Part shown: one piece after another, positions 31,372 through 60,886 of the stretch
How the letters are laid out: each line of letters begins with the position of its first letter
How positions within the stretch are numbered: the stretch's first letter is position 1
DNA from: Parcubacteria group bacterium Gr01-1014_13
GTDB taxonomy: Bacteria > Patescibacteriota > Patescibacteriia > Magasanikbacterales > GWA2-37-8
Direction of reading: 5' to 3'
NCBI GenBank assembly: GCA_007376295.1
Contig: VMGB01000003.1
Coordinates: 7,106-71,105 of the forward strand
Length of the DNA: 64,000 nt
Notes under the pieces: model-generated
Told to the model about the DNA's origin: nothing
Database searches by the model: none
Seen by the model: only the letters and a program-made list of their open reading frames with translations
Translations under genes and position numbers: made by a program

Positions 31372-32253
31372 ATGTATTCTCAAATAGACTCCAACAAAAG
31401 ACAATCCGTATTACTGATGATGGTTTTTATCGCCGTCATTATTGGTTTGGGCTATGTTTTTGATAAAACCTTAGGAGCTGGTGATTATAGTTATGTCATA
31501 TTTGCTATCTTATTATCTTTTGGCATGACCGCTATCTCGTATTTTCAGGGAGACAAAATTGCTTTGTGGACTAGCGGCGCGAAGCCGATTGCCAAAGAAG
31601 ATAATGCCTATGTCTATCGTATGGTGGAAAACTTAGCCATTACCAATGGTATACCAACCCCAAAAATTTATATTATTGAAGATTCAGCTATAAACGCCTT
31701 TGCCACTGGCCGCAAACCGGAGCTGTCTTCTATTGCTGTCACCCGCGGCGCAACAGAAAAACTTACCAACGAAGAACTAGAAGGTGTGCTAGCGCACGAA
31801 CTTTCGCATGTAAAAAATTACGATATCCGGTTTATGACCTTGGTAGCCGTGCTGGTAGGTGCCATTGCCATACTATCGAATATATTTCTACGCAGCCAGT
31901 GGCTCCCCCGCCGCAATGACCGCGAAAGCGGAAACATCGGCGCTATCTTTATGATTGTTGGTATAGTGCTGGCTATACTCTCACCTATTATCGCCGAGCT
32001 TATAAAACTAGCTATTTCCCGCCGCCGTGAATATTTGGCCGATGCTTCTGGGGCGCTACTTACCCGCTATCCCGAAGGTTTAGCGCGAGCTCTGGAAAAA
32101 ATCGCAGCCGAAAATCAGCCGATGAAAAATGCCAACCACGCGACAGCTCACATGTTTCTGTCCAGTCCATTTGCGGGCAAAAAAATATCCTCTTTATTTT
32201 CCACTCATCCTCCAGCTGAAGACAGAATAAAAAAATTGAGAGAGATGGCATAG
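31372..32253 (+). CDS. htpX: Zinc metalloprotease HtpX (M48)
   Basis: HELSHV motif, four TM helices. Confidence 0.85.
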   Translation: MYSQIDSNKRQSVLLMMVFIAVIIGLGYVFDKTLGAGDYSYVIFAILLSFGMTAISYFQGDKIALWTSGAKPIAKEDNAYVYRMVENLAITNGIPTPKIYIIEDSAINAFATGRKPELSSIAVTRGATEKLTNEELEGVLAHELSHVKNYDIRFMTLVAVLVGAIAILSNIFLRSQWLPRRNDRESGNIGAIFMIVGIVLAILSPIIAELIKLAISRRREYLADASGALLTRYPEGLARALEKIAAENQPMKNANHATAHMFLSSPFAGKKISSLFSTHPPAEDRIKKLREMA

Positions 32254-32254
32254 T

Positions 32255-32716
32255 ATGCTAAGAGTGCTGCCATTCCGACAATCCTCCGGCTTTTGCGGAC
32301 CAGCCAGCCTAAAAATGGTTCTGGAATATTTTGGTATAAAAAAATCGGAAAAAGAATTAGCAAAATTATCTAACGCTCACCCGCATCACGGTACTAGCGC
32401 AAAAAATTTAGTTTTGACTGCCAAAAAACTGGGGCTCAAAGGTTTTTATAAAGATTTTTCTTCCATAAAAGAAATAAAAAAATATTTAGATAAAAAAATA
32501 CCGGTCATTGTGGACTGGTTTTCTCATGATGACGGACATTACTCGGTGGTAATAGGTATTGATAAAAAATTTATTTATCTGCAAGATCCGGAATTGGGCA
32601 AGATAAATAAAATAGATTTGGTTACATTCCAAAGAATTTGGTTTGATTTTGAAGAAAAAATGTTAAACAAAAAACAAGATATTTTTATTCGTCGGCTGAT
32701 TGTTATTTACCGCTAA
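32255..32716 (+). CDS. Peptidase C39-like (papain-fold) domain protein
   Basis: QSSGFCGPASLKMVLEYFG (catalytic Cys context) and downstream HY. Confidence 0.5.
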   Translation: MLRVLPFRQSSGFCGPASLKMVLEYFGIKKSEKELAKLSNAHPHHGTSAKNLVLTAKKLGLKGFYKDFSSIKEIKKYLDKKIPVIVDWFSHDDGHYSVVIGIDKKFIYLQDPELGKINKIDLVTFQRIWFDFEEKMLNKKQDIFIRRLIVIYR

Positions 32717-47588: not shown

Positions 47589-49421
47589 TTATGCTCTTGA
47601 TCCCAGTATTCGCTCAATATCTTCCTGTTCAATAGTCTCTTTTACCATCAATTCCTTGACCATATCTTCCAACTGAGGACGGTGGCTATCTACAACTTCT
47701 CTGGCTCGTTTTTCGGCTTCAGCCAAGAAGTTACCCACCTCTTTATCTATAGCTTCGGCAGTTTTTTCACTATAATCTTTTTGGTCGGCTTTTCCCCCGC
47801 CCAAGAAAACCATTTCTGGGTGATCGCCAAAAGTACGTGTACCCAAAGCACTCATACCATAACGTGTTACCATGGCTTGAGCAACCTCAGTGGCATTTTT
47901 TAAGTCAGATGATGGTCCGGTGGAAATCATATCATCACCAAAAATTATTTTTTCCACCACATAACCGCCAAGCATCATAGCCAATTCATCTCTAAATTGG
48001 GCCAAAGTATGATAATGCTTGTCTTCGGTCGGCATCTTTAAAGTATAGCCGCCGGCGCTGCCGCGAGATATTACTGAAACTTTGCGGACTGGGTCGCAAT
48101 GAATAGAGTAATGACCAACTATAGCGTGTCCAGCTTCGTGATAAGCGGTAATTTTCTTTTCATGATCGCTGATAATGCGATTTTTTCTTTCCGGACCAAG
48201 CAAAACTTTCTCAATACTTTCCAAAATTTCCAGTTCACCAACTTTTTTTAGTCCGCGACGGACAGTTAAGATGGCGGCTTCATTAAGTAAGTTGGCTAAA
48301 TCAGCTCCGGAAAATCCAGGGGTGCGTTCAGCAATTTTACGCAAGGAAACAGTTGACTCCAGCGGTTTGTTTTTGGCATGAATACCCAAAATTTCTTCAC
48401 GGTCTTTAATATCTGGTAAATCCAAAGTTACGCGTCTATCAAAACGGCCTGGTCTTAGCAAGGCAGGATCAAGCACATCTGGACGGTTGGTAGCAGCTAC
48501 CACGATTACTCCCAAGTTAGGATCAAAACCATCCATCTCAACTAAAATTTGATTTAAAGTCTGTTCTCTTTCATCATGACCTCCGCCCATACCAGCTCCT
48601 CGGCGTCTACCCACAGCATCAATTTCATCTATAAACACAATTGCCGGAGCTTCTTTTTTTGCTTTATTAAAAAGATCGCGTACGCGTGAAGCACCCACAC
48701 CCACAAACATTTCCACAAATTCAGAACCGGACATATTGAAAAACGGCACGTTGGCTTCTCCGGCCACAGCTCTGGCGAGTAAAGTCTTTCCAGTACCCGG
48801 ACTGCCTACGAGTAGTACTCCCTTAGGAATTTTTGCTCCCATTTCAGTAAACTTTTTTGGATCTTTAAGGAAATCAACTACTTCTACTAACTCTTGTTTG
48901 GATTCTTTTGCTCCGGCCACATCAGCAAAAGTTTTTTTGTTTTTATCATCGGGAGTGGTTTGGCGAGGATTGCTTTGGCCAAAGCCCATTGCTTTGCTGT
49001 TCATTCCTTGCACGCCACGAGTCATGAAATAGAAGAATAAAATAAAGATAGCTAAAGGCAATAATACCGGAAGTAAATTACCAGCCCAAAACTTCAAAGA
49101 ACTTTCGCCTTTTACTTCTACAGATAGCTGTTTAAGAGAAGCGTCTGTAATTCCATAGTTTTTTACAATATCGCCAAAAGTGCCATTTGGCTCTTTTTGC
49201 ACTTTCTGCAATTTGGCCTTTTCATCCTTTAGCTGCAAGCTTAGGCTGTCGCCTTGAATGATAACCTTTTTCACCTGTCCGGCATTAATTTCCTCTACCA
49301 TTTTGCTGATACTGACGGTTTCAGGGCCTTTATTTTGTTCATTTTTTACCAACCCCAAGATACCTGCTATTACAAATAGGGCTACAAAAACGATAATAAA
49401 ATTCTTTAAGAAATGACGCAT
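47589..49421 (-). CDS. ftsH: ATP-dependent zinc metalloprotease FtsH
   Basis: AAA+ module [11 protein letters not shown] and HEAGHAIV. Confidence 0.95.
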
Positions 49422-49565
49422 ATATTACGATGGTTAACTTAATATCTTACAGTTCATAAAATATACCCTATTTTTCACAAAAAAGCAAGGGGTTGGGCTT
49501 AAATGCCGGTTATAAAAATATCCCGCCCCACATAACTGTGAGACGGGACGAAACGAACCGATAGA

Positions 49566-50183
49566 TCAAGCGCCCACTGGCTTCTCGCTGATGAAACCGA
49601 ACAAGGAGTCATTTCTACAGTTAATGCCATGCCGGACCGAACGGTAGTCCAGGTGTCGATAGTCTGGATAACCGTAGAGATGGAACACATTGCCGTGCCG
49701 TACGGAGCCGAGCGCCACGATTGGCGCTTGCCGTTGTTCCTCAGGATACTGGATGCCAATAGCGTGGATGTGCTTGGGCATGATGGGCTTCTTATCACCA
49801 TTCCCCTTGGCCCACGCGAGTATCTCATCGTAAGATGGACTCCGGTCAAACTGATACAAATCAACACTCATCGACTCAGCCAAGTCAGCCTCGTCGTCGA
49901 CAAACAGTGTGATAATACGTTTGTCGCAGGTATCATACTTGCCAAGCTTGATGGCGTGCTTGTGCGACCTCACATTGTTTGATTTGAGATCAAGTGTCTT
50001 GACTAGGGTACCGACTATGGGTGGTTCCGGTACCGGCCGTCTAGGCAAGGGGGGCTCCTTTGGCTCTACGATGATACCGCACTCACCGCTGAGTACTGCT
50101 CGCGCAACCTTATCGCCACCAATAATATTTATAAGCGCCTCGATCTGGCCGAGTTTCCAATCGCCATATTTCGCCATCTGCGT
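49566..50183 (-). CDS. High-GC hypothetical protein (about 205 aa)
   Basis: Clean ORF with AGGAG RBS. GC is visibly above the flanks. No motif recognised. Confidence 0.4.
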   Translation of the reverse strand, partial: TQMAKYGDWKLGQIEALINIIGGDKVARAVLSGECGIIVEPKEPPLPRRPVPEPPIVGTLVKTLDLKSNNVRSHKHAIKLGKYDTCDKRIITLFVDDEADLAESMSVDLYQFDRSPSYDEILAWAKGNGDKKPIMPKHIHAIGIQYPEEQRQAPIVALGSVRHGNVFHLYGYPDYRHLDYRSVRHGINCRNDSLFGFISEKPVGA

Positions 50184-50310
50184 TCTCCTTCTGGACTGAA
50201 AGCCCAAAAAGCATTTTGCCCCTGCCCGGGACCTAGGTCTTCTCTCATGAGAAGAACGTATACATATACTCGTTATTTTAAATTCTGTCAAGAAACACAC
50301 CAAAAACAAA

Positions 50311-50348
50311 ACATCCCCAGACATTATGTCTAAGGGATGTTTTTTATA
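50311..50348 (-). terminator. rpsA terminator hairpin + T-run
   Basis: CATCCCCAGACAT..ATGTCTAAGGGATG with T-runs. Confidence 0.55.
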
Positions 50349-50354
50349 CTGTTT

Positions 50355-51557
50355 TTACTTAGCCTCTTCAGCCTTATCTTCTTTTTCTTTCTTTTTTTCC
50401 TTTTTACCTTCTTCAGCTTCTTCGGTTTTTTCCGCTTTTTTAACCTTACCCTTTACACCATAGAGTCTTAGACCCAAGCGGTGCTCTGGTGGTTCCAAAG
50501 AAACGATTTCGAAGTCGGTAGTTTGTCCAATTTTAAATTTATCAGCAATGTTTCCAGAAGCGTCATCGGTGAGCTCGGAAATATGAGCCAAACCGTGAAT
50601 ATCTTTGTCCAGCGCTACCATTAAACCAAACGGTTCAATCTTCAAGATTTTTCCGGCAACTTTGTCGCCAACCTTATATTTGTCTTTAACCAATTTCCAA
50701 GGATCATCTACCAAACGTTTGATGGACAAATAAATCTTTGATCTGTCCAACTGGATAATTTGAGCTTTGATCTTGTCGCCAACTTTCAAAATATCTTTTG
50801 GATGATCAATACGTTGCCAAGCGATTTCGGAAATATGTACCAAACCTTCCAAGTCCTGGCCAAATTTCACAAAAGCGCCGAAGGAAGTAAGGGCGCTGAT
50901 TTCGCCTTCCACCACATCGCCGATTTTGTATGATTCCAAAACTGCTTTCTGAGCATCTTCCCAAACTGCTTTTTCAGAAACAATTAATTTTTCTTCTTTT
51001 TGATTTACATCAATTACTTTCACTTCTATTTCTTGATTGATCAATTCGCGCAATTTTTCTAAAATACGATTTTTATCGCCGCCCATAACACGCGGATAGT
51101 GTTCTGGATTCAATTGAGAAACTGGCACGAAACCAGCAAGTCCTTCCAACTGCACCATCAGACCGCCTTTGTTAGCAGAAAGTACTTTTGCTTTAATAGT
51201 CATGTTGTCTTGCATCCACTTGCGGACATTATCCCAAGCGCGGGCAAATCCGGCAATGCGGAAAGATAATTCCATTTCGCCGTTTTCATTTTCTAATTCT
51301 AAAACTGTAGCTTCGACTTCGTTGTCAACTTTTAAACTGCCATATTCTTTGGCTTCGGCAAACAATTCGCGGCCGCGTACGACACCAACTGTAAGTCCTT
51401 CGATGTCTACGTGCACTTCACCCTTGTCTATAGAAATAATTTTACACTTTACTACATCGCCAACTTTAGGGATGGTAAGAGCATAAGAAGCAAACAGGGT
51501 TTTAAAATCCTGTCCGCCAGAAGATTTTTCTTCGTCTAATTTTTCGTTCTTGGTCAT
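50355..51557 (-). CDS. rpsA: 30S ribosomal protein S1 (four S1 domains, K/E-rich tail)
   Basis: Repeated S1 motifs. Confidence 0.85.
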   Translation of the reverse strand: MTKNEKLDEEKSSGGQDFKTLFASYALTIPKVGDVVKCKIISIDKGEVHVDIEGLTVGVVRGRELFAEAKEYGSLKVDNEVEATVLELENENGEMELSFRIAGFARAWDNVRKWMQDNMTIKAKVLSANKGGLMVQLEGLAGFVPVSQLNPEHYPRVMGGDKNRILEKLRELINQEIEVKVIDVNQKEEKLIVSEKAVWEDAQKAVLESYKIGDVVEGEISALTSFGAFVKFGQDLEGLVHISEIAWQRIDHPKDILKVGDKIKAQIIQLDRSKIYLSIKRLVDDPWKLVKDKYKVGDKVAGKILKIEPFGLMVALDKDIHGLAHISELTDDASGNIADKFKIGQTTDFEIVSLEPPEHRLGLRLYGVKGKVKKAEKTEEAEEGKKEKKKEKEDKAEEAK

Positions 51558-51786: not shown

Positions 51787-52053
51787 CTATTTTAACTTCT
51801 CTCTCAACTTATCAATCTTGTCATTTATACGAAACCGTTCTTCTTCCAAAAAATGTCTATGCTCCATAGTTAGATACCGCCTTAAGTGCGGTGGTAAATT
51901 TAGATACTCACTTACCTCGCGCTCGTCTTGCTCTAATTTTTCTAACCGGCAGTGTCTCGCCCATCTAATTACTACTGGCGTGAAAAGTAATACCATAGCA
52001 AAAGTAGGGGCTATGACAAAGAAAAAAACTTGCAGACCAATGAATTTTCTCAT
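51787..52053 (-). CDS. Small single-TM protein (88 aa), first member of the paralog array
   Basis: ORF with AAGGAGG RBS and its own promoter. Confidence 0.4.
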   Translation of the reverse strand: MRKFIGLQVFFFVIAPTFAMVLLFTPVVIRWARHCRLEKLEQDEREVSEYLNLPPHLRRYLTMEHRHFLEEERFRINDKIDKLREKLK

Positions 52054-52080
52054 TGCTTCCTCCTTCTTTGTCTAGACTTT

Positions 52081-52110
52081 ATTATTACCAGACCAAGACC
52101 AAAAAGTCAA
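52081..52110 (-). promoter_or_regulatory. Promoter TTGACT-17-TAATAA(T) on the minus strand. The same module recurs upstream of each array gene.
   Basis: Read directly. Analogous copies are at about 53253-53282 and 52745-52775. Confidence 0.55.
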
Positions 52111-52117
52111 TATAATG

Positions 52118-52150
52118 AATAAAAAAACTGTCCCGGGGTCGGGACAGCGA
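52118..52150 (-). terminator. Perfect 8-bp hairpin CTGTCCCG-GGGT-CGGGACAG + A7/T7. Repeated at 53296-53316 and 53688-53708.
   Basis: Read directly. Confidence 0.6.
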
Positions 52151-52177
52151 AGACAAAATTTATTTTTTGACACTCTT

Positions 52178-52714
52178 TCACTTACCATTAGAGTGGACCA
52201 CGATCGCTCTGACAAGCTTGGATTCACCTCTGCGGTAACGCCCTATCCGAACTAACCATATGCCATACATGATTGCCGGAGAAATGAGCATACCTCCGCC
52301 AGCAAACGAGAGAAACCAATCATATCCATTTCGTGGATACGAAACGAATAAAATGAGCATTAAATTCCAAGCAACAAAAGCGCCGAAAGACAGAATAGCA
52401 AGAACCTTCGTGCAAGGTTGCTCTGGAAGTTTGTTGGCTTTCATTGATTGAAAATGGACCACTGCCTTTGGCAACTTCACTTTTGGTAATTGTGATTGGC
52501 GACGCGTCTTGATTTTATTAACTAGTAACGCAACAGACAAGCCGAGAGAGGCCAAGACGCAACCAGCAAGAAAAAGTAGCATTATCCAAGTGGTATCATC
52601 ATAGAAACCACAGAATTTTACCGCTAGAAGAAAAAGAACTAAAAACATTAGCGCTGAGGCGAGATAACCGTATAACAGATTCTTCATATCATACATCACG
52701 TCTCCGGTAATCAT
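52178..52714 (-). CDS. Small membrane protein of the paralog family: an internal duplication of [2 TM + basic KLPKAVVHF-like motif]
   Basis: RRQSQLPKVKLPKAVVHF after TM2. RRGESKLVRAIVVHS after TM4. Confidence 0.45.
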   Translation of the reverse strand: MITGDVMYDMKNLLYGYLASALMFLVLFLLAVKFCGFYDDTTWIMLLFLAGCVLASLGLSVALLVNKIKTRRQSQLPKVKLPKAVVHFQSMKANKLPEQPCTKVLAILSFGAFVAWNLMLILFVSYPRNGYDWFLSFAGGGMLISPAIMYGIWLVRIGRYRRGESKLVRAIVVHSNGK

Positions 52715-52834
52715 GATTTTTCCCCTTGTTGACTATTTGATTGTTCTTATATCACAACCGATACAAAAAGTCAATATTAAAAATCCCGCACCCCTCGAAA
52801 GGAATACGGGACAAAGCACTGGTGTTCGCGCTAA

Positions 52835-53236
52835 TCAATCGGCAACATTCGCTGCTTCCATATACTGCTTGAACAGCTTATACAGTTCCTTGACACAAAA
52901 GATCAACGAGCTGCTAACTACGAAACCACCCAACGCCCAACCTAGTGACATGTTATAATCTCGAAAACCTTCTACCCACCAGGATGGTAGTAGGAGCAAA
53001 CTTCCAACAGTGGCCGTCAAAATAACTGCCAATGAGAGAAAATACCTGAGAGAAAGTGGCTTGTAAGCGCACAGTACTCTCGGAATGTCTAACATACACC
53101 AAAACGTACCTAATACGACTCCTTCGAAAAATGAAGCAAACCATCTCTCCGTAACTCCTGAAATTAAGAGAAGTAAAGAAAATAGGACTGCAAACATGAC
53201 ACCAACGACAACAGACGAAATAATGAGCTTTTTCAT
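52835..53236 (-). CDS. Small 4-TM membrane protein
   Basis: ORF with AGGAGGAAA RBS and the shared promoter cassette. Confidence 0.4.
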   Translation of the reverse strand: MKKLIISSVVVGVMFAVLFSLLLLISGVTERWFASFFEGVVLGTFWCMLDIPRVLCAYKPLSLRYFLSLAVILTATVGSLLLLPSWWVEGFRDYNMSLGWALGGFVVSSSLIFCVKELYKLFKQYMEAANVAD

Positions 53237-53339
53237 GGGTTTCCTCCTGCATACTTATTATCACATAAAAGATGAAAAGTCAATATAAAAATAAAGCTGC
53301 CCCGAGGTCGGGACAGCGATGACGAAATGTCTTACGAAA

Positions 53340-53612
53340 CTACGGACGAAAATGGACCACTGCCTTTGGCAACTTCACTTTTGACAAGTGTAGTTGGCGA
53401 CGCATCTGAATTTTAACTACCAACAATTCAATGAGCACCCGCGAGGTTGCCGTGACGTAGATAATTAAAGAAAGAAGCATGATGGCAGTAAAGCCGTCAA
53501 TGAGGCCAAAAATTCTGATAGAAAAGGGACAACCAATTAATAACAATAGCGTAGGAACACCAAAACCGAATAAAAGGCACTTCGCATCATACCGCCTATT
53601 TTGCAGAGTCAT
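53340..53612 (-). CDS. Half-length paralog (2 TM + RRQLHLSKVKLPKAVVHF, ending right at the motif). Possibly truncated.
   Basis: About 70 bp of its DNA is near-identical to 52449-52520. Confidence 0.35.
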   Translation of the reverse strand: MTLQNRRYDAKCLLFGFGVPTLLLLIGCPFSIRIFGLIDGFTAIMLLSLIIYVTATSRVLIELLVVKIQMRRQLHLSKVKLPKAVVHFRP

Positions 53613-53728
53613 GGGGTTTCTCCTGACTGAATTGTCTAATTGTTTTTATATCACTCCAGAAGCCAAATGTCAAGCTTAAAAAAGCTGCCCCAGGGTTGGG
53701 ACAGCGATGATGTTCGTCAAATGTTGAG

Positions 53729-54151
53729 CTAATCAAGTTTGTGGCGTTTGAGTTCCTCGACGGTACCCTTCCAGCCCAAAAACTTTTTAATTCCTTGCAA
53801 ATTAACTGATACTATTTTAGTTGTCGGCGAAGCTGGCGGAACATATTTCTTGAGCTTATCCACTCCCAACACTTTGAGATGATTGTGTGGAAAACGCGCG
53901 ACTGCCTTTGGCAGTTTCCTAGACTGTCGACGACGATGCACCGCCGCCCAAATTAAGGATGACGACAGATAAGTCGCGCATGATAGCAATAAAATGAACG
54001 CGTATGAGAACACAAGATAATGGAAGCAAACGAGAACATTAGAAGCCGTGCCTATAGGGAAAAAATAGAAAGAGAGCTCCCCGGCTAAGTAGCTACCGAC
54101 TATTGCGCTGGGTACAATACGCCAGCTGAGCAGAGTATCCAAATATCTCAT
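53729..54151 (-). CDS. Paralog-family membrane protein (RRRQSRKLPKAVARF)
   Basis: Shared motif after TM helices. Confidence 0.4.
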   Translation of the reverse strand: MRYLDTLLSWRIVPSAIVGSYLAGELSFYFFPIGTASNVLVCFHYLVFSYAFILLLSCATYLSSSLIWAAVHRRRQSRKLPKAVARFPHNHLKVLGVDKLKKYVPPASPTTKIVSVNLQGIKKFLGWKGTVEELKRHKLD

Positions 54152-54186
54152 TGAGTTCCTCCTTGTTGAACTTGTTGATCGCGAGT

Positions 54187-54480
54187 TTACCTTGCGCGAT
54201 TTGGCGCAAGATTTTTAATCAGCCGGCGATGGTGCCTGGCGTCCTGAACCAAGTCCAAAGCGCTAATCAAAGGAAACCATAGAATGACGAATACGCCAAA
54301 TGCTACACTAAGAAACCAGAGGCCGAGCAAGATTTTAGAAAGCACAACGAAACCGCCGCTGCTTAGGTCGTTACTCTCGCAAACGAAAGTAGAGAAAAGG
54401 AAAGCAATGTCGCTTCCCAAGAGAAAATAGGCAAAAAAACATAATGCCATGCCCAACAAACCAAACATGATATCCTTCAT
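54187..54480 (-). CDS. Small 3-TM membrane protein with a basic tail
   Basis: ORF only. Confidence 0.35.
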   Translation of the reverse strand: MKDIMFGLLGMALCFFAYFLLGSDIAFLFSTFVCESNDLSSGGFVVLSKILLGLWFLSVAFGVFVILWFPLISALDLVQDARHHRRLIKNLAPNRAR

Positions 54481-54603
54481 TGTTTTCTCCTCTATACGTT
54501 ATATATCACGCTGAAGAAGAAAGGTCAACCATGCACCAGAGCAAGCTCAATGCATGGTAAATGCAAAAAAATCCCGCCTTCCGAAGAAGAACGGGACGAA
54601 CCA

Positions 54604-55182
54604 TTATTTTCTCTTTACCATCCGGCACTCATGATGCAAACGGCACATCATTTCAATATCCAGAGGCGTAACGACAGTCGGTAGCTTATATGACATTACT
54701 GAACCTGTGCCTTCGGGCACATCATTATCATCCCGACCGAGCACATGCCCAAACTCGTGCGCCATTCTACGAGGCGTAATCGTAAACGAATTGTCAAACA
54801 CAATCTCGGGCGATGAGTATGATGAGGATGATGCCCCATAAGCATAACAGGCGAAGCTGCCCTCGCCACAGAAACCTGCCTCAATCTTTAAATAGATAAC
54901 ATCCTCGTTTACTCGATTCGAAGGCAGATTGTTCTTTGAGTAAAGGATAACTGCCCGAGGATGATTGGCCTTGCCGAAATAATCGAACCATTGCTTGACA
55001 CCATCATTGATCTGCTGGACCCGGGAAGCGCGGCAAGCTTCGTAGCCTGTGGGATCTTGCTCACAGCCAGACCAAAAACTTTGCTCTGTCACCATATAGA
55101 TAGGATGGCGCAAATCAAAATATGGAACCCCACCACAACTGCAAATTGCAACAAGCGCAATAGCGATGAAAAAAGAACGCAT
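54604..55182 (-). CDS. Lipoprotein metzincin, snapalysin (M7)-like zinc metalloprotease
   Basis: Lipobox AICSC. HEFGHVLGRDD (HExxHxxGxxD) and Met-turn SVMSY. Confidence 0.6.
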   Translation of the reverse strand: MRSFFIAIALVAICSCGGVPYFDLRHPIYMVTEQSFWSGCEQDPTGYEACRASRVQQINDGVKQWFDYFGKANHPRAVILYSKNNLPSNRVNEDVIYLKIEAGFCGEGSFACYAYGASSSSYSSPEIVFDNSFTITPRRMAHEFGHVLGRDDNDVPEGTGSVMSYKLPTVVTPLDIEMMCRLHHECRMVKRK

Positions 55183-55200
55183 GAAACACCTCCTCTACTT

Positions 55201-55809
55201 TCATTTTACCATCCGGCATTCAAAATGCAAACGACACATTATTTCGATATCCAAAGGCAAAACATTGGTCGGAGTCTTATATGACATGACCGAGCCCGTA
55301 CCTTCCGGAACATCATTATCATCTCTACCAAGAGCGTGTCCAAACTCATGCGCCATGATACGAGGTGTGATCCGCGACGAACCATCAAACACAATCTCTG
55401 GTATCTTGTGTCTGTAGCAGGCCACATAGCTCCCTCCCAGCTTTTCCTTGCCGCATTCACCCCCAGGATCAATACCCAGATGGATGACTCTGTTTTTCGG
55501 ATTTGACGGCAGTTCTTCCTCAGAAAAAAAGATCGCTACCTCGGGACGATCGGCCTTATCAAAATAATCAAACCACTGCTGGACACCCTCGTTAATCTGC
55601 TTGACCCGCAACGCACGACAAATGTCATCGCCTGCCGGATCTTTGTCACAACCCAACCACAAGCTTTTGTCTGCCAACATATAGACTGGGTGGCGCAAAT
55701 CAAGATATAGAGCTGAGGTTCTAAAAACTGAAGGGCGCAAATCAGGGTGCTGAGTACTACTACAGCCACAAACCAAGAATAGCCCGATGGCGATTAAAAA
55801 AGAACGCAT
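55201..55809 (-). CDS. Paralogous lipoprotein snapalysin-like metzincin
   Basis: Lipobox LVCGC. HEFGHALGRDD + SVMSY. The 3' ends of the two genes are near-identical at DNA level. Confidence 0.6.
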   Translation of the reverse strand: MRSFLIAIGLFLVCGCSSTQHPDLRPSVFRTSALYLDLRHPVYMLADKSLWLGCDKDPAGDDICRALRVKQINEGVQQWFDYFDKADRPEVAIFFSEEELPSNPKNRVIHLGIDPGGECGKEKLGGSYVACYRHKIPEIVFDGSSRITPRIMAHEFGHALGRDDNDVPEGTGSVMSYKTPTNVLPLDIEIMCRLHFECRMVK

Positions 55810-55959
55810 GTACTACCTCTTTTCTGACTATTATATATAGTACCACAATTTCTAAGGCTGAACCGAATAAGAAAGCTTCGTTTTCTTATTCGTGAGGCCT
55901 GACGAAATTGCAAAGCTATGCTTCAAAAAACAAAATAGGCTCAACAAATAATCAAATTT

Positions 55960-55991
55960 TAGGCCTTGCCCATTATAGGGATATATGATAA
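55960..55991 (+). promoter_or_regulatory. Candidate gyrB promoter TTGCCC-17-TAAAAT
   Basis: Read directly. Confidence 0.35.
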
Positions 55992-56039
55992 AATATCACT
56001 ACAAAATTGTTTAAAATTTGTAATTAGAAATTTGATGTT

Positions 56040-59000
56040 ATGCCTATAAAAAGAGTCTCTAAAGGAAGGATAATCCCAGAAAAAAAACCAGTAAAATCTT
56101 TAAAACCCAAAGTTAAAAAGATTTCCGCGCCTGCTCCTAAACCAACTCCCGCCCCCGCTAAAGTTATGGCAAACAAACCAAAAGCGAAAGTTTCCGACAA
56201 AGCTGATGCCAGCTATAGCGCCAAAAATATTACAATTTTAGAAGGTCTGGAAGCCGTACGCCGCCGTCCGGGCATGTATATTGGCTCCACTGGTCCGGTA
56301 GGTCTTCATCACCTAATTTGGGAAGTAGTAGACAACTCTATCGACGAAGCGATGGCTGGTTTTTGTACGCAAATTAACATCACTCTTTTGCCAGATCATT
56401 ATATAGAAGTAAAAGACAATGGTCGTGGTATCCCTGTAGATATTCATCCGCAAACCGGTGTCAGCGCTTTAGAAGTTGTACTTACCAAACTGCACGCTGG
56501 TGGTAAATTTGATGCTGGCAGTTATAAAGTTTCTGGTGGTTTGCACGGCGTGGGTGTTTCGGTAGTCAACGCTTTATCCACACACGTTAAAGCCGAAGTG
56601 CATCGCGACGGCAAAGTTTGGTTGCAAGAATATAAAAATGGCGGTAATCCGGTAAAAAAAGTTCATCAAATTGGTACTACCAAAGACCGCGGTACAATAA
56701 TTACTTTCCGAGCTGACGACACTATTTTTGAAACCATTGATTACGAATGGAAAACTATTATCGATCACGTTCGCCAACAAGTCTATCTGTCCAAAGGTAT
56801 TCGTATTGCTATAACCGATAAAAGAACTGGCGCGGAAAAAGATGCGGACAAAACTGCTTTGCCATTCCCCAACCCAACTTATCAATTTTACTTTGAAGGC
56901 GGTATCGCTTCATATGTTCGCCACCTAAACCAAAACAAAGAAGTCAAAAACGAAAATGTTTTTTATGTAGAAAAGGTACACGAAGATGTAAAAGTAGAAA
57001 TCGCTTTACAATACAGCGATGAATTTACTGAATCTTTGTTTGCTTTTACTAATAATATTTACAATCCTGAAGGCGGCACGCATGTGGCTGGTTTTCGTAC
57101 AGCCCTGACCCGAAGTTTAAACAGCTATGCGCGCAACAAAAATATTTTAAAAGAAAAAGACAGCAACCTGACTGGTGAAGACGTACGGGAAGGTTTAAAC
57201 TGTATAATTTCTGTCAAAGTTACTGAACCGCAATTTGAAGGTCAAACCAAAGCCAAATTAGGAAACACCGAAGTAAAAACTGCGGTTGAAGCCGTGATGA
57301 ATGATGAATTTTTGGTCTTCCTGGAAGAACACCCGAAGGATGCCGAAGGCATCGTTGGTAAATGTTTGCTCGCTGCCCGCGCTCGCAATGCGGCTAAAAT
57401 CGCCCGCGATACTATTTTGCGTAAAGGTGCTTTGGAAGGATTTACTCTGCCTGGAAAATTAGCAGACTGCAGCAGCCGACGCGCCGAAGAATCTGAATTG
57501 TTCATTGTGGAGGGAGATAGTGCGGGTGGATGTTGGGATGGAAATACACTAGTTGCGCTTGCTGATGGCAGAGCCTTGAGTTTTAAAGAAATTATAAAAG
57601 AACAATCTGAAGGCAAAGAACATTTCTGTTATACCATAAGAAATGATGGAAAAATTGGCTTAGAAAGAATTATTAATCCGCGCCGAACAAAAACAAACGC
57701 TACGGTTATTAAAATCACTCTTGATAATGGAGAAATTTTAACTTGCACACCGGACCATCTTTTTATGACACGAGATGGAAGTTATAAACAAGCCCAACTT
57801 TTGACTGCGAAAGACTCTTTAATGCCACTATACAAAAAAATCTCGAATAAAAAAGAAAGGGGCATCACCATTGACGGGTATGAAATGGTGTGGGATCCAA
57901 AATCTGATTCCTGGCTATTTACGCACATGCTAGCTGACTGGTACAACAGATGGAAAGGTGTTTATAAAACTACAGATGGCGATCACCGCCATCACATGGA
58001 CTTCAACAAACGTAACAACAACCCTTCAAACTTGCTTAGGATCTCAAAAGAATCCCATTTGGAATTACATAGAAAACATGTAAGCAAAACATTGCATAGA
58101 CCGGATGTTATTGAAAAATGCAGAAAAATAAAACAGGATCCACAATTTCGAACAGCAATGAGCGCGCGCATGAAGCAGCCGGAAACAGCGGCTTTGCTTT
58201 CAAAAAATGCAAAAAAACAATGGCAAAATACAGAATACAAGAATTACATGACCAAAAAATTCTTAGAATTCTATAATAACAACGAAGAATACCGCCAAAA
58301 AAATAACGAGTTGCTGAATAAAGCCCAACAGAAGTATTGGAGCGATGAAGTAAACAAAATCAATCAAGCCGAGAGGGTTACAAAATTCTTTGAGGAGCAT
58401 CCTTATAGAAAGGAATGGTTAAGAGAACTAGCCGCGGCGCAATGGAATGACTCAGACTTAAAACAATGGCGTTCCGAAAAAACAAAGGAGCAATGGACGC
58501 TGGAATTCCGCACCAAACGACGTGAAGCATATAACCAGACTTACCTCCAGAACAGTTTGGCGTTTGCCAAAAAAATCTTGGAGCAGGGTCAGGATTTATT
58601 TGTGACATATAATCTGACCCGAAAAAATCTGCCGAAACGCGACAATAATATAGTCAAACTAGAAACTCTGCTTGACCGATTTTTTGCCGGAGATAAAAAT
58701 CGTCTACTTGAAGCCACAACTAACTTCAATCATAAAATAACAAAGATTGAAAAGGTAAAAGAAAAAATTGATGTATATGACATTGAAGTCCCAGGAACTC
58801 ACAATTTTGCGCTTGCTTCCGGAATATTCGTGCATAATAGTGCCAAGCAAGGACGTGACCGTGAACACCAAGCCATCTTGCCTCTGCGCGGTAAAGTTCT
58901 TAATGTTGAACGCGCTCGTTTAGATAAAATTCTCACCAACAACGAATTAAAATCACTCATCATTGCTATGGGCACAAATATTGGCGAAGCGCTTGATATT

Positions 59001-59570
59001 TCCAAACTTCGTTATCATCGCGTAATCATCATGACCGATGCTGATGTCGATGGCGCGCATATCCGTACTCTTCTGCTTACATTTTTCTATCGTTACTACC
59101 CAACGCTAATTACCGGTGGACATATTTTGATTGCCCAGCCGCCGCTATATAGTTTGAAGTATGGCAAGAACATGAAGTACGCTTATAACGACGAAGAAAA
59201 AGAAAAAATACTTCTTGAAATTAAAAATACATCTTCTGCCAATTCCTCTGCTAAAGCTGCGGCTAAAAAAGCAATGGTAGGAGCGTCATCTCCAGAAGAA
59301 GCTGGAGAAACTGCTGAAGGCGAAGTTCAAGGATTAGAAATAAATGGCATTAAAGTAAATATTCAGCGCTATAAAGGTTTGGGTGAAATGAACCCTGAAC
59401 AACTTTGGGAAACTACCATGAACCCAAAAAATCGCATGATGAAAAGAGTGACTATTGAAGACGCTGAACTGGCCAATGAAGTTTTTGAAATCCTAATGGG
59501 TGATGAAGTAGCTCCACGCAAAAAATTCATCCAAACTCATGCCAAATCAGTAAGTAATTTGGATATTTAA
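56040..59570 (+). CDS. gyrB: DNA gyrase subunit B interrupted by an in-frame intein, with a K/P-rich N-terminal extension
   Basis: GHKL ATPase motifs. Toprim EGDSAGG...SAKQGRDR is split by a 436-aa insert. Confidence 0.9.
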   Translation: MPIKRVSKGRIIPEKKPVKSLKPKVKKISAPAPKPTPAPAKVMANKPKAKVSDKADASYSAKNITILEGLEAVRRRPGMYIGSTGPVGLHHLIWEVVDNSIDEAMAGFCTQINITLLPDHYIEVKDNGRGIPVDIHPQTGVSALEVVLTKLHAGGKFDAGSYKVSGGLHGVGVSVVNALSTHVKAEVHRDGKVWLQEYKNGGNPVKKVHQIGTTKDRGTIITFRADDTIFETIDYEWKTIIDHVRQQVYLSKGIRIAITDKRTGAEKDADKTALPFPNPTYQFYFEGGIASYVRHLNQNKEVKNENVFYVEKVHEDVKVEIALQYSDEFTESLFAFTNNIYNPEGGTHVAGFRTALTRSLNSYARNKNILKEKDSNLTGEDVREGLNCIISVKVTEPQFEGQTKAKLGNTEVKTAVEAVMNDEFLVFLEEHPKDAEGIVGKCLLAARARNAAKIARDTILRKGALEGFTLPGKLADCSSRRAEESELFIVEGDSAGGCWDGNTLVALADGRALSFKEIIKEQSEGKEHFCYTIRNDGKIGLERIINPRRTKTNATVIKITLDNGEILTCTPDHLFMTRDGSYKQAQLLTAKDSLMPLYKKISNKKERGITIDGYEMVWDPKSDSWLFTHMLADWYNRWKGVYKTTDGDHRHHMDFNKRNNNPSNLLRISKESHLELHRKHVSKTLHRPDVIEKCRKIKQDPQFRTAMSARMKQPETAALLSKNAKKQWQNTEYKNYMTKKFLEFYNNNEEYRQKNNELLNKAQQKYWSDEVNKINQAERVTKFFEEHPYRKEWLRELAAAQWNDSDLKQWRSEKTKEQWTLEFRTKRREAYNQTYLQNSLAFAKKILEQGQDLFVTYNLTRKNLPKRDNNIVKLETLLDRFFAGDKNRLLEATTNFNHKITKIEKVKEKIDVYDIEVPGTHNFALASGIFVHNSAKQGRDREHQAILPLRGKVLNVERARLDKILTNNELKSLIIAMGTNIGEALDISKLRYHRVIIMTDADVDGAHIRTLLLTFFYRYYPTLITGGHILIAQPPLYSLKYGKNMKYAYNDEEKEKILLEIKNTSSANSSAKAAAKKAMVGASSPEEAGETAEGEVQGLEINGIKVNIQRYKGLGEMNPEQLWETTMNPKNRMMKRVTIEDAELANEVFEILMGDEVAPRKKFIQTHAKSVSNLDI
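57531..58838 (+). mobile_element. GyrB intein (436 aa) with an HNH homing-endonuclease domain
   Basis: Starts with Cys (CWDGNTLVALADG). Ends ...GIFVHN followed by Ser(+1). Internal DHRHHMDFNKRNNNPSNLL...HLELH HNH motif. Confidence 0.75.
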
Positions 59571-59857: not shown

Positions 59858-60403
59858 ATGGCAAAACAGACCCTGAATTTAGGTAAACGTTGGTACGTGC
59901 TACACACTTACAGCGGCTACGAAGAAAACGTAAAAAGCAATCTGGAACAACGCACAGAGTCTTTTGCCATGCAAGATAAAATTTTTAATATTTTAGTTCC
60001 GAAAGAAAAGAAAATAAAAATCAAAAACAGCAAACGTTCAGTTGTGGAAGAAAAAATGTTTCCTGGTTACGTCTTAGTAGAAATGATCGTTACCGATGAT
60101 TCTTGGTATGTAGTACGTAATACACCTAATGTTACCGGATTCGTTGGTTCAGGTACTACCCCAACACCGATCGATCAAGCCGAGGTTGATGGTCTAGTAA
60201 AAAGAATGTCTGCTTCTGAACCACAACACAAAATTGATTTTGAAATTAACGAATCAGTACGCATTACCGATGGACCATTCAAAAACTTTGAAGGTAAAGT
60301 TAGCAATGTTGATCAGGAAAGAGGCAAAGTTAAAGTTCTTATCACCATGTTTGGTCGCGAAACTCCGGTAGAACTGGATGCAATGCAGGTTAAAAAAGCT
60401 TAA
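59858..60403 (+). CDS. nusG: Transcription termination/antitermination factor NusG
   Basis: NGN domain (WYVLHTYSGYE) plus KOW. Confidence 0.9.
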   Translation: MAKQTLNLGKRWYVLHTYSGYEENVKSNLEQRTESFAMQDKIFNILVPKEKKIKIKNSKRSVVEEKMFPGYVLVEMIVTDDSWYVVRNTPNVTGFVGSGTTPTPIDQAEVDGLVKRMSASEPQHKIDFEINESVRITDGPFKNFEGKVSNVDQERGKVKVLITMFGRETPVELDAMQVKKA

Positions 60404-60460
60404 TTAATTGTTTACGGATTGGTTCCTTCCAGGGACGCTTCTCAATCCAAATTAAATCAT

Positions 60461-60886
60461 ATGGCCAAGAAAATTACAGCACAGATCAAATTGCAGATTA
60501 TGGGCGGAGCCGCTAACCCAGCGCCACCAGTCGGTCCGGCGTTAGGTCAGCACGGTGTAAACATCCAAAGTTTCTGCAAAGAATTCAACGACAAAACTCA
60601 AGATAAAAAAGGTGAAGTAGTGCCAATTATCATTTCCGTTTACGAAGACCGAAGTTTTACCTTCATCATGAAGACTCCTCCGGTTCCGGAATTGATCAAA
60701 AAAGCTGCCAACATTTCCAAAGGTTCAGCAAAACCTTTACAAGAAAAAGTTGGTAAAATAACTAAAGCACAAGTACGCCAAATTGCTGAAAAGAAAATGC
60801 CGGACCTAAACGCTCACACTGTGGAAGCTGCCATGAGTATGGTGGAAGGTACAGCACGAAATATGGGAGTAACGGTTGAAGGTTAA
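60461..60886 (+). CDS. rplK: 50S ribosomal protein L11
   Basis: [34 protein letters not shown] is canonical L11. Confidence 0.9.

What the first reader, a model, noticed from the sequence alone, without database searches (positions are those of the whole stretch)
54604..55809. Tandem pair of lipoprotein snapalysin-like (M7-type) metzincins with elevated GC
Both proteins (192 and 202 aa) have lipoprotein signal peptides, HEFGH[VA]LGRDD (HExxHxxGxxD) and a downstream Met-turn SVMSY. HExxHxxGxxD is, to my knowledge, the variant metzincin motif of the snapalysin/M7 family from Streptomyces rather than the usual HExxHxxGxxH. The two genes share near-identical 3' DNA, which points to a recent tandem duplication, and they look GC-richer than the backbone. 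A possible origin is an actinomycete host or donor. Their position next to the small-membrane-protein array could reflect a protease/immunity or surface-processing relationship.
Basis: partly seen in the sequence, partly recalled or inferred. Interest (0 to 1): 0.55.

Follow-up and report, generated by a model that had tools for sequence, protein, structure and literature searches.

The report
Lipoprotein metzincin protease pair, CPR-native
Two adjacent genes in this Parcubacteria (CPR) genome encode small membrane-tethered zinc proteases of the metzincin type; they belong to a small unannotated family native to these bacteria, and are neither Streptomyces snapalysin-like imports nor a recent duplication.

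Summary
The two ORFs (54604-55182 and 55201-55809, minus strand; 192 and 202 aa) are real. Each has a lipobox, HEFGH[VA]LGRDD and an SVMSY Met-turn. An AlphaFold model (pLDDT 83.6) has the canonical metzincin fold. Its closest solved structures are MMP catalytic domains and karilysin, not snapalysin. Pfam gives neither protein a hit above threshold, and M7 is essentially absent. A profile search of 1.84 billion representative proteins finds only 63 relatives. Those placed in genomes are CPR/Patescibacteria, and none is an actinomycete.

The genes sit in a conserved slot (rplK-nusG-secE-gyrB, then divergently two or three metzincins, small membrane ORFs, S1, FtsH) in at least six related assemblies. 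Genes A and B fall in separate clades, each shared with several related assemblies (98-100% bootstrap), and paralog dS is about 1.2. The duplication is therefore old, and the 3' DNA is only about 79% identical.

GC is mildly raised (0.47 against 0.40, z about 1.6), as it is in orthologous loci. The Asp third ligand is derived within the family: outgroups and divergent members have His. It always co-occurs with a Tyr two residues after the Met.

Verdict: an ordinary-mechanism but unannotated CPR metzincin family.

The parts
55201..55809 (-). Metzincin gene B (202 aa), the gyrB-proximal 'up' copy. Lipobox LVCG-C16, then a linker of about 20 aa predicted disordered. The catalytic domain spans about residues 38-202, with H154-E155-xx-H158-xx-G161-xx-D164 and the Met-turn S173-V-M175-S-Y177. 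Conserved Cys: 54, 64, 119, 131, 192, 198.
   Evidence: ORF. 100% match to a hypothetical protein of Parcubacteria group bacterium Gr01-1014_13. Alignment invariants. AF2 model pLDDT 83.6, pTM 0.78, with five strands and three main helices. Foldseek best hits are MMPs and karilysin. Groups with the 'up' copies of L010, L018 and L019 at 98% bootstrap.
54604..55182 (-). Metzincin gene A (192 aa), the distal 'down' copy. Lipobox AICS-C16, HEFGHVLGRDD, SVMSY. It lacks the 14-residue N-terminal linker insertion of B.
   Evidence: ORF. 57% identical to B. Lies in the 'down' clade at 100% bootstrap. Family HMM score 316 bits.
55183..55200 (-). 18-nt intergenic spacer carrying the ribosome-binding site of gene A (GAGGAGG). 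It implies that B and A are co-transcribed.
   Evidence: DNA alignment and sequence.
54560..54597 (-). Intrinsic-terminator-like hairpin (GUCCCGU-UCUUC-UUCG-GAAG-GCGGGAU) followed by U7, directly after the stop codon of gene A. It probably ends the bicistronic unit.
   Evidence: Sequence. RNA fold -15.4 kcal/mol, z=-2.5 against shuffles. The consensus scanner missed it because of a bulge.
55810..56039 (-). Divergent intergenic region between gyrB (+) and gene B (-). It holds promoter-like hexamers (GTGATA-16-TATAAT at 55999-55972), an AT-rich TATATATAAT just upstream of the RBS, and the RBS AAAGAGG.
   Evidence: These are consensus matches only.
51787..54480 (-). Neighbouring array of six small ORFs (97, 140, 90, 133, 178 and 88 aa) with 1-3 predicted TM helices. 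It is context and not shown to be part of the protease unit. Three share the post-TM motif (K)LPKAV(V/A)(H/R)F. Several (four of the six) carry a near-identical hairpin terminator.
   Evidence: Hydropathy and BLASTP, motif, terminators and repeats, no Pfam hit. Homologous small ORFs follow the metzincins in L010, L015, L019 and L021; L018 has only a weak match.

Best explanation
The two genes encode paralogous, lipid-anchored minimal metzincin zinc endopeptidases. They belong to a small unannotated family found mainly in CPR/Patescibacteria. Its nearest known relatives are matrixin-type (M10, MMP/karilysin-like) catalytic domains.

Inferred mechanism:
- The Sec/lipoprotein signal (lipobox Cys16) is cleaved and the Cys lipidated. 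This tethers a catalytic domain of about 165 residues to the outer face of the cytoplasmic membrane through a short flexible linker.
- Zinc is held by H154, H158 and D164. E155 is the general base. M175 of the invariant Met-turn underlies the metal site.
- Y177 (Met+2, as in the SxMSY/SIMHY turns of serralysins and astacins) probably acts as a tyrosine switch or extra ligand that accompanies the His-to-Asp exchange.
- Six conserved Cys probably form three disulfides.
- There is no prodomain, so the enzyme is probably active once folded and metallated.

The pair arose by an old tandem duplication and is inherited vertically at a fixed chromosomal slot next to gyrB. It evolves 4-8 times faster than its core neighbours while remaining under purifying selection, as expected for surface-exposed proteins. 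The likely role is extracellular or surface proteolysis by an episymbiotic, auxotrophic cell: scavenging peptides, or trimming host or self surface proteins.

Shown: ORFs, motifs, fold prediction, family size and taxonomy, synteny, paralog age, direction of the ligand change. Inferred: lipidation, zinc binding, activity, substrates.
For: Identity and motifs. HExxH, G157 and M175 are invariant across 56 diverse members.

Fold: the AF2 model has pLDDT 83.6, and DSSP gives five strands, helices A and B (active site) and a C-terminal helix. 33 Foldseek PDB hits have E<=1e-3, all metzincins, led by MMP-11, -13, -1, -2, -16 and karilysin at TMt 0.55-0.62.

Sequence profiles: MMP-2 scores E=4e-5. The alignment runs from the zinc motif through the Met-turn into helix C and includes the conserved Asp. 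21 of 56 members give weak Peptidase_M10 hits at E<0.01, best 7.7e-6.

Family isolation: 63 hits at E<=1e-3 in 1.84e9 representatives, and no Pfam or NCBIfam model above cut-off.

Taxonomy: Parcubacteria, Magasanikbacteria, Patescibacteria.

Synteny and tandem copies.

Old duplication.

Derived Asp ligand: G8/D11 occurs in 31 closely related sequences and G8/H11 in 25 more divergent ones. Both outgroup loci have His. P0035 GRKHND and P0032 GRKDND differ by a clean single-site swap. The HMM alignment places the Asp opposite the third His of MMP-9.

Tyr co-variation: 31 of 31 D-type sequences have Tyr at Met+2, against 4 of 22 H-type.

Lipobox: 59 of 81.

Selection: dN/dS is 0.13-0.28 against 0.02-0.07 for flanking genes.
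Against: No biochemical evidence exists. Model coordinates could not be inspected, so the D164-zinc geometry, the disulfide pairing and the position of Y177 are inferred from alignment only.

TM-scores of about 0.5-0.6 show a shared fold but not close kinship with M10, and the profile E-values to MMPs are modest and centred on the C-terminal half.

Lgt and LspA were not found among ten sampled ORFs of the window. The rest of the genome was not available, so lipidation in this organism is unverified.

dS is near saturation (about 1), so the dN/dS values are approximate. Orthology inside the 'down' clade is poorly resolved (bootstraps of 14-34%).

Confidence: 0.8

Rival explanations
1. One reading: the genes are snapalysin-like (MEROPS M7) metzincins recently acquired from an actinomycete and recently duplicated.
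For: The HExxHxxGxxD motif and a Met 11 residues after the Asp resemble snapalysin, where the Met lies about 10 residues after the third ligand (PMC3890501). The domain is small. GC is mildly raised.
Against: PF02031 is hit by 1 of 28 members at E=0.18. Snapalysin 1c7k scores E=1 and E=0.014, far below MMPs, and is not in the Foldseek top 50. No actinobacterial relatives were found. The syntenic position is conserved in CPR relatives. His is the state in outgroups, so the Asp arose inside this family. Paralog dS is about 1.2 and A and B fall in separate clades shared with other assemblies. The GC excess is shared by orthologs and driven by GC1.
Confidence: 0.03
2. They are true but highly divergent members of family M10 (bacterial matrixin/karilysin-like), not a separate family.
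For: The best structural matches are MMPs and karilysin. The best profile hit is MMP-2 at E=4e-5, covering zinc motif, Met-turn and helix C. 21 of 56 members give Peptidase_M10 hits at E<0.01, and one (P0027) has a precomputed PF00413 hit. Domain length is about 165 aa, as in MMP catalytic domains.
Against: The window's two proteins give no PF00413 hit even at E<=10. An exhaustive profile search does not spill into the very large M10 family (63 hits in all). There is no cysteine-switch prodomain. No conserved His/Asp cluster lies between strands III and IV where MMPs bind structural Zn/Ca; a conserved Cys pair sits there instead. The residue after the third ligand is Asn or variable, not the matrixin Ser. 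TM-scores are only about 0.5-0.6.
Confidence: 0.15
3. The metzincin pair and the downstream small membrane proteins form one functional module, either toxin/protease with immunity proteins or protease with membrane substrates or anchors.
For: Small 1-5-TM ORFs directly follow the metzincins on the same strand in the window and in L010, L015, L018, L019, L021 and L023. Some are homologous across assemblies: the 97-aa ORF matches an L019 ORF at 47%, and the 140-aa ORF matches ORFs in L021, L019, L015 and L010. Both gene sets evolve fast.
Against: All these loci are close relatives with 85-97% identical flanking genes, so adjacency may be inherited synteny. More distant loci do not show the same ORFs: L013 has a 322-aa protein and FtsW, L002 a 14-TM protein. 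A terminator follows gene A, and several of the small ORFs have their own promoter-like and terminator elements. The lipoprotein protease faces outward, whereas the conserved basic LPKAVVHF motif after a TM helix is probably cytoplasmic by the positive-inside rule (inference).
Confidence: 0.1
4. They are catalytically dead pseudo-proteases kept for a binding or structural role. The His-to-Asp change would mark loss of activity.
For: The third ligand is non-canonical. ADAMDEC1, with the same change, was set apart as a novel subgroup of ADAMs on that basis (PMC4885070).
Against: H154, E155, H158 and M175 are invariant in 56 sequences. The Asp is fixed in 31 D-type sequences, together with a fixed Tyr at Met+2. 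Asp-liganded metzincins such as snapalysins, thuringilysins and igalysins are active enzymes (PMC12237041). Selection is purifying, with dN/dS<0.3.
Confidence: 0.05

Closest known systems
Matrixins, MEROPS M10A / Pfam PF00413 (MMP catalytic domains; bacterial karilysin of Tannerella forsythia)
   Same: Same five-strand, three-helix metzincin fold. A catalytic domain of about 165 residues. Best Foldseek hits and best sequence-profile hits. HEFGHALG is identical to MMP-9, and the VPE after the third ligand is shared. A short connector from third ligand to Met-turn (11 residues here, 8 in MMP-9). An aromatic residue close after the Met. A conserved Asp at the start of helix C.
   Different: The third ligand is Asp in the window's clade. 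There is no PRCGxPD cysteine-switch prodomain. No conserved structural Zn/Ca-binding loop is evident, and a Cys pair sits there instead. It has a lipoprotein anchor. It falls below the Pfam threshold, with no hit at all for the two window proteins. The family-specific residue is Asn, not Ser.
Snapalysin, MEROPS M7 / Pfam PF02031 (Streptomyces small neutral protease; PDB 1C7K, 1KUH)
   Same: HExxHxxGxxD with an Asp third ligand. The Met lies about 10-11 residues after the ligand. Small single-domain enzyme with no prodomain-rich architecture.
   Different: No significant sequence or profile similarity and not among the top structural matches. About 165 residues against 132. Lipoprotein, not a secreted soluble enzyme. 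Found in CPR, not actinomycetes. The Asp here was acquired independently from a His ancestor.
ADAMDEC1 (decysin-1), an M12B adamalysin with HEXXHXXGXXD
   Same: A lineage inside an otherwise His-type metzincin family that replaced the third His by Asp (PMC4885070). It is the best analogy for how the motif arose here.
   Different: ADAMDEC1 is a eukaryotic, multidomain, secreted protein and is unrelated at family level.
Serralysins (M10B) and astacins (M12A): Met-turn with Tyr switch (SxMSY / SIMHY)
   Same: The Met-turn sequence S-V-M-S-Y has a Tyr two residues after the Met, the position of the zinc-binding or switch Tyr in these families. The position is from my own knowledge; that Tyr switches occur in these families is stated in PMC12237041.
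   Different: No RTX or other C-terminal domain, no significant sequence similarity beyond the motifs, and the third ligand is Asp.
Fragilysin (BFT, M10C) and adamalysins/reprolysins (M12B)
   Same: Weak profile hits that extend over strand IV, strand V and the active-site helix. Foldseek E values are 1e-4 to 1e-3.
   Different: Those domains are larger (about 200 aa) and have a prodomain. TM-scores are lower (about 0.4), and the hits are far below the family cut-offs.

Membership tests
Metzincin clan, MEROPS MA(M) | Extended zinc motif HExxHxxGxx(H/D) | tested here: met
   HEFGH[AV]LGRDD in both proteins. H, E, G(157) and H are invariant in 56 members. The Asp aligns with the third His of MMP-9.
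Metzincin clan, MEROPS MA(M) | Conserved Met-turn methionine downstream of the third ligand | tested here: met
   M175 is invariant in 56 sequences, in the context S-[VI]-M, 11 residues after D164.
Metzincin clan, MEROPS MA(M) | Fold: five-stranded sheet, backing helix A, active-site helix B and C-terminal helix C | tested here: met
   AF2 DSSP elements E42-46, H61-80, E91-94, E109-113, E130-133, E138-141, H149-159, H185-194. All top Foldseek hits are metzincins. This rests on a predicted model only.
Metzincin clan, MEROPS MA(M) | Zinc binding and peptidase activity | not testable with these tools
   Needs biochemistry.
Snapalysin, M7 (PF02031) | Significant match to the family profile or to solved snapalysins | tested here: not met
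   No PF02031 hit for either protein at E<=10. 1 of 28 members hits at E=0.18. 1c7k scores E=1 with profile A1 and E=0.014 with A3, at the bottom of the 60 listed.
Snapalysin, M7 (PF02031) | HExxHxxGxxD with Met about 10 residues after the Asp | tested here: met
   The feature is not exclusive to M7 (PMC12237041, PMC4885070, PMC4815223, PMC3890501).
Snapalysin, M7 (PF02031) | Closest structural neighbour is snapalysin; minimal domain of about 132 aa with a one-helix C-terminal subdomain | tested here: not met
   Snapalysin is not in the Foldseek top 50, and the mature domain is about 165 aa.
Snapalysin, M7 (PF02031) | Actinomycete distribution or origin | tested here: not met
   Relatives are in CPR/Patescibacteria, and the chromosomal slot is syntenic in related assemblies.
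Matrixin, M10A (PF00413) | Pfam PF00413 match at the gathering threshold | tested here: not met
   No hit for either window protein. 21 of 56 family members give weak hits, best E=7.7e-6. One member (P0027) has a precomputed PF00413 hit.
Matrixin, M10A (PF00413) | Three-His motif HExxHxxGxxH followed by Ser | tested here: not met
   The window proteins have Asp followed by Asn. His-type relatives have variable residues after the His.
Matrixin, M10A (PF00413) | Cysteine-switch prodomain (PRCGxPD) | tested here: not met
   Only 20-35 residues lie between the lipobox Cys and the first strand, and no such motif is present.
Matrixin, M10A (PF00413) | Structural zinc and calcium sites in the loop between strands III and IV | tested here: inconclusive
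   No conserved His/Asp cluster appears in that loop of the alignment; C119 and C131 are conserved there instead. Model coordinates could not be inspected.
Matrixin, M10A (PF00413) | Closest fold relatives | tested here: met
   MMP-11, -13, -1, -2, -16 and karilysin lead the Foldseek list at E 2e-5 to 4e-4 and TMt 0.55-0.62.
Bacterial lipoprotein | N-terminal signal peptide ending in a lipobox [LVI..][..][AGS]C | tested here: met
   MRSF-hydrophobic-ICSC / VCGC with Cys16. 59 of 81 family sequences match a PROSITE PS51257-type pattern.
Bacterial lipoprotein | Lgt/LspA machinery present in the genome | not tested
   Ten size-appropriate ORFs of the window were scanned and none was Lgt or LspA. 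The rest of the genome was not available.

The most novel reading that the evidence does not exclude
This CPR-restricted metzincin family preserves, among living sequences, a stepwise remodelling of the catalytic zinc site. The ancestral His third ligand becomes Asp, always together with gain of a Tyr two residues after the Met-turn methionine. Transitional His+Tyr forms survive (P0033, P0035, P0055). The resulting fast-evolving, lipid-anchored protease pair, together with the adjacent cassette-amplified small membrane proteins, forms a variable surface island between core genes. Episymbiotic CPR cells would use this island to attack or remodel host or self surface proteins.
Probability: 0.15. 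Interest if true: 0.6.

Novelty: new member of a known kind. Interest (0 to 1): 0.3.

Why it matters
CPR/Patescibacteria are tiny, auxotrophic, mostly episymbiotic bacteria. How they obtain amino acids and interact with host surfaces is poorly known, and most of their surface proteins are unannotated.

This analysis gives a confident fold-level and catalytic-motif annotation to a family of about 60 clusters (at 50% identity) that databases label 'hypothetical'. It is a lipid-anchored minimal metzincin.

It also corrects a tempting but wrong motif-based call (M7 acquired by horizontal transfer).

It offers a compact natural series for studying exchange of the third zinc ligand (His to Asp, plus Tyr) in metzincins.

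Mechanistically nothing unusual is implied, so the general significance is modest.

Tried and rejected
(1) Direct Pfam and NCBIfam scans gave only sub-threshold hits (Reprolysin_4 E=0.016, fragilysin E about 0.1), so there is no family assignment.

(2) Two giant proteins appeared in the exhaustive search (P0070 at 2728 aa with 9 matched stretches, and P0083). P0070 is a coiled-coil repeat protein whose WFDDLQKK repeats mimic helix A, so it is a spurious compositional match. P0083 was not inspected.

(3) The weak hits of about 300 aa in Saccharibacteria, Paceibacterota, Taylorbacteria and Syntrophales/Thermodesulfobacteriota (L003-L009, family HMM E of 1e-5 to 1e-6) match mainly the zinc-motif region. 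I treat them as other metzincins and not as family members.

(4) I considered horizontal transfer on the basis of composition and rejected it.

(5) I looked for Lgt/LspA in the window and found none among ten ORFs, which is uninformative.

(6) The first tree script timed out. I redid it as a Kimura-distance NJ tree with 200 bootstraps. No maximum-likelihood program was available.

(8) The literature search for metzincins in CPR found nothing specific.
Full report
**Observation**

The window holds two adjacent minus-strand ORFs at exactly the stated coordinates: A at 54604-55182 (192 aa) and B at 55201-55809 (202 aa). They are 18 nt apart, and each is preceded by a Shine-Dalgarno-like sequence. 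They are 57% identical by BLASTP, E=4e-81.

Both begin MRSF-hydrophobic stretch-(I/V)C(S/G)C, which fits the PROSITE-type lipobox pattern with the lipidated Cys at position 16. 59 of 81 family sequences fit the same pattern. Both contain HEFGH[VA]LGRDDNDVPEGTGSVMSY.

Two DNA-level statements are not:
- The 3' ends are not near-identical. The last 50 codons are 78.7% identical, 41% of codons encoding identical residues differ synonymously, and the longest identical run is 14 nt.
- The GC excess is real but small. The genes are at 0.468 and 0.471 against a gene mean of 0.404 (sd 0.042). They rank 4th and 5th of 50 ORFs, and three other ORFs reach up to 0.503.

**Source and family**

Both proteins are 100% matches to hypothetical proteins G01um101413_738 and _737 of 'Parcubacteria group bacterium Gr01-1014_13', a CPR MAG, on a 182.7-kb contig.

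The word-indexed search found 30 clusters at E<=0.01, 160-220 aa long. One has a source-supplied Pfam hit (PF00413), and none has a functional name. An exhaustive HMM search with the 28-sequence profile against 1.84 billion representative proteins found only 63 proteins at E<=1e-3 and 29 at E<=1e-30. The profile does not leak into the very large M10/M12 families. One of the two giant hits, P0070, is a coiled-coil protein and a compositional artefact.

In the species-representative genome collection, the clear relatives are a Magasanikbacteria MAG and a Patescibacteria MAG. The weaker hits of about 300 aa in Saccharibacteria, Paceibacterota, Taylorbacteria and Thermodesulfobacteriota match mainly the zinc motif. 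No actinomycete appears. The metagenomic contigs that say so come from groundwater.

**Which metzincin family?**

Pfam gives protein A no hit at E<=10 and gives protein B only Reprolysin_4 at E=0.016, below its cut-off. NCBIfam gives only fragilysin at E of about 0.1.

Scanning members individually:
- In the 28-member alignment, Reprolysin_4 is touched by 15 of 28, Peptidase_M10 by 9 of 28 (best 7.7e-6), and Peptidase_M7 by 1 of 28 at E=0.18.
- In a broader 56-member alignment, Peptidase_M10 leads with 21 of 56 at E<0.01.

Against PDB sequences, the narrow profile hits MMP-9 (E=0.002, motif only) and fragilysin (E=0.0045), while snapalysin 1c7k scores E=1. The broad profile hits MMP-2 at E=4e-5. 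That alignment runs from the zinc motif through the Met-turn into the C-terminal helix and includes the conserved helix-C Asp. Snapalysin appears at E=0.014 at the bottom of the list.

An AlphaFold2 model of B built on the family alignment is confident: mean pLDDT 83.6, pTM 0.78, with most of the mature domain above 90. Only residues 1-3 and 12-31 are disordered. It shows the canonical metzincin elements of five strands, a long helix A (61-80), the active-site helix (149-159) and a C-terminal helix (185-194).

Foldseek against the PDB returns 33 hits at E<=1e-3, all metzincins. They are led by the catalytic domains of MMP-11, -13, -1, -2 and -16 and by the bacterial MMP-like karilysin (TMt 0.55-0.62). 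Adamalysins/ADAMs and fragilysin follow at TM about 0.4. Snapalysin is not in the top 50.

Conclusion: this is a bona fide metzincin fold whose nearest known relatives are matrixin-like. It lies outside every curated family, and M7 is not supported.

**The Asp ligand**

The HMM alignment places D164 opposite the third zinc-binding His of MMP-9.

Across the family, G8/D11 occurs in 31 sequences, all in the closely related crown group that includes the window's genes. G8/H11 occurs in 25 more divergent sequences. Most of the remainder carry His one position later.

Both outgroup genome loci (L001 Magasanikbacteria, L002) and the divergent upstream copy in L015 have the canonical HExxHxxGxxH. P0035 (HEFGHALGRKHNDMPEE) and P0032 (HEFGHALGRKDNDVPEG) differ by a clean single-site exchange. 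The Asp is therefore a derived state inside a His-type family, acquired independently of snapalysin.

The motif alone cannot assign M7 in any case. An Asp third ligand is described for snapalysins, thuringilysins and igalysins (PMC12237041), ADAMDEC1 (PMC4885070), M6 PrtV (PMC4815223) and the DUF1025 mini-zincins (PMC3890501).

One new observation: every D-type sequence has Tyr two residues after the Met-turn Met (SVMSY, 31 of 31), against 4 of 22 H-type sequences. This is the position of the zinc-binding or switch Tyr of serralysins and astacins (my own knowledge). It suggests a coupled remodelling of the metal site. The counts are not phylogenetically independent.

**Genomic context and history**

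The flanking genes are core genes. On one side lie gyrB (56040-59570, +), nusG and rplK. On the other lie a ribosomal-protein-S1-like gene, ftsH, a 321-aa gene and a T2SS-E/PilB-like ATPase.

The same arrangement, gyrB then divergently metzincins, small ORFs, S1 and FtsH, recurs in L010-12, L015-16 and L018. It recurs partly in L013, L019, L020 and L023. There the flanking proteins are 85-97% identical to the window's.

Every locus with enough sequence has at least two tandem family copies, and L021 has three.

In an NJ tree (188 columns, 200 bootstraps), B groups with the gyrB-proximal copies of L010, L018 and L019 at 98%. A lies in a separate clade of eight sequences, mostly distal copies, at 100%. 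Paralog dS is about 1.2, which is saturated. The duplication therefore predates the divergence of these genomes and is not recent.

Family genes are slightly GC-richer than their flanks in most of the other loci too, by about +0.01 to +0.05. GC1 is about 0.5 throughout, which reflects amino-acid composition. Together with the synteny, this removes the case for a foreign origin.

The metzincins evolve much faster than their neighbours: dN is 0.15-0.31 against 0.02-0.06, and dN/dS is 0.13-0.28 against 0.02-0.07. These values are approximate because dS is about 1. The genes remain under purifying selection, as is usual for exposed surface proteins.

**Transcription unit and the small membrane ORFs**

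Gene A is followed immediately by a bulged GC hairpin plus U7, at -15.4 kcal/mol and z=-2.5. B and A therefore probably form a bicistronic unit.

Downstream lie six small ORFs (97, 140, 90, 133, 178 and 88 aa) with 1-3 predicted TM helices and no Pfam match. Three share a post-TM motif, (K)LPKAV(V/A)(H/R)F. The 90-aa and 178-aa ORFs are paralogs. Four of the ORFs carry a near-identical hairpin terminator, and several a repeated promoter-like element. The region has 15 terminator-like sites against 4.9±2.3 expected.

Homologs of some of these ORFs follow the metzincins in L010, L015, L019 and L021, with only a weak match in L018. The more distant loci L013 and L002 lack them. It cannot be told apart from inherited synteny, and the terminators argue against obligatory co-expression.

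**Mechanism (inferred)**

After Sec export and lipoprotein processing, a catalytic domain of about 165 residues is tethered to the outer face of the membrane by a 5-25-residue flexible linker. B has a 14-residue insertion in this linker relative to A.

Zinc is bound by H154, H158 and D164. E155 polarises the catalytic water. M175 supports the site and Y177 may assist. Six conserved Cys (54, 64, 119, 131, 192, 198) probably form disulfides, consistent with an extracytoplasmic location.

No prodomain is present. Deeper family members carry a Cys-rich C-terminal tail (ECPPHEDTWCEGxFYDxCRCPSxSFEEGE) that the window's clade has lost.

A role in extracellular or surface proteolysis, either nutrient scavenging or trimming of host or self surface proteins, is plausible for an episymbiotic CPR cell. 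It is not shown.

**Verdict**

This is a real feature that works by an ordinary mechanism: a previously unannotated, CPR-native metzincin family related most closely to matrixins.

It drew the wrong family assignment (M7), the wrong age for the duplication and the wrong origin.

Novelty: a new family-level member of a known kind. Interest is modest (0.3). The internal His-to-Asp/Tyr switch and the fast-evolving surface island are the only points a specialist might pursue.

Noticed in passing
window 56040-59570 (+): GyrB is 1176 aa, against 727-737 aa in syntenic relatives. It carries an intein (Pfam Intein_splicing PF14890, residues 506-933) inserted at the start of the Toprim region, with an HNH-like stretch (DGDHRHHMDFNKRNNNPSNLLRISKESHLELH). 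The relatives in L013, L015 and L016 lack it, so the gain is probably recent.
   Followed up: partly
window 51787-54480 (-): An array of six small ORFs with predicted TM helices looks amplified cassette by cassette. Four of them end in a near-identical hairpin GCTGTCCCGACCYYGGGGCAGC plus T-run (at 53317, 53705, 52148 and 51774), and several are preceded by a repeated promoter-like AAAAGTCAATATAA. The region has 15 terminator-like sites against 4.9±2.3 expected. Three ORFs share the post-TM motif (K)LPKAV(V/A)(H/R)F, which is also present in a 231-aa ORF of L015. No Pfam match.
   Followed up: partly
family members P0030, P0036, P0038, P0042, P0054, P0055; L001 5974-6648: Deeper, His-type members of the family have a conserved Cys-rich C-terminal extension (ECPPHE[DN]TWCEGxFYDxCRCPSxSFEEGE) that is absent from the window's clade. 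It may be a small disulfide-knotted or metal-binding module of unknown role.
   Followed up: no
family-wide (window B residues 164 and 177): The Asp third ligand co-occurs perfectly with Tyr at Met+2 (31 of 31), against 4 of 22 for His-type members. The His+Tyr forms (P0033, P0035, P0055) look transitional.
   Followed up: partly
window 54604-55809 compared with 47589-51557 and 59858-60886: The metzincin orthologs have dN of 0.15-0.31 and dN/dS of 0.13-0.28. The flanking S1, FtsH, NusG and L11 genes have dN of 0.02-0.06 and dN/dS of 0.02-0.07 in the same genome pairs. This makes a fast-evolving island between highly conserved core genes.
   Followed up: yes
window 10069-10572 (-), 31372-32716 (+), 5886-6341 (+): Other ORFs identified while looking for Lgt/LspA: a small leucine-rich-repeat protein (167 aa), an M48 peptidase followed directly by a stand-alone C39-family cysteine peptidase domain (153 aa), and a near-threshold SprT-like zincin (151 aa).
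   Followed up: no
L015 4612-5220 (+): In L015 and L016, a 202-aa ORF with no Pfam hit lies between gyrB and the two family copies. It was not detected by the family HMM at E<=1e-3. It may be a very divergent or decayed third copy.
   Followed up: no
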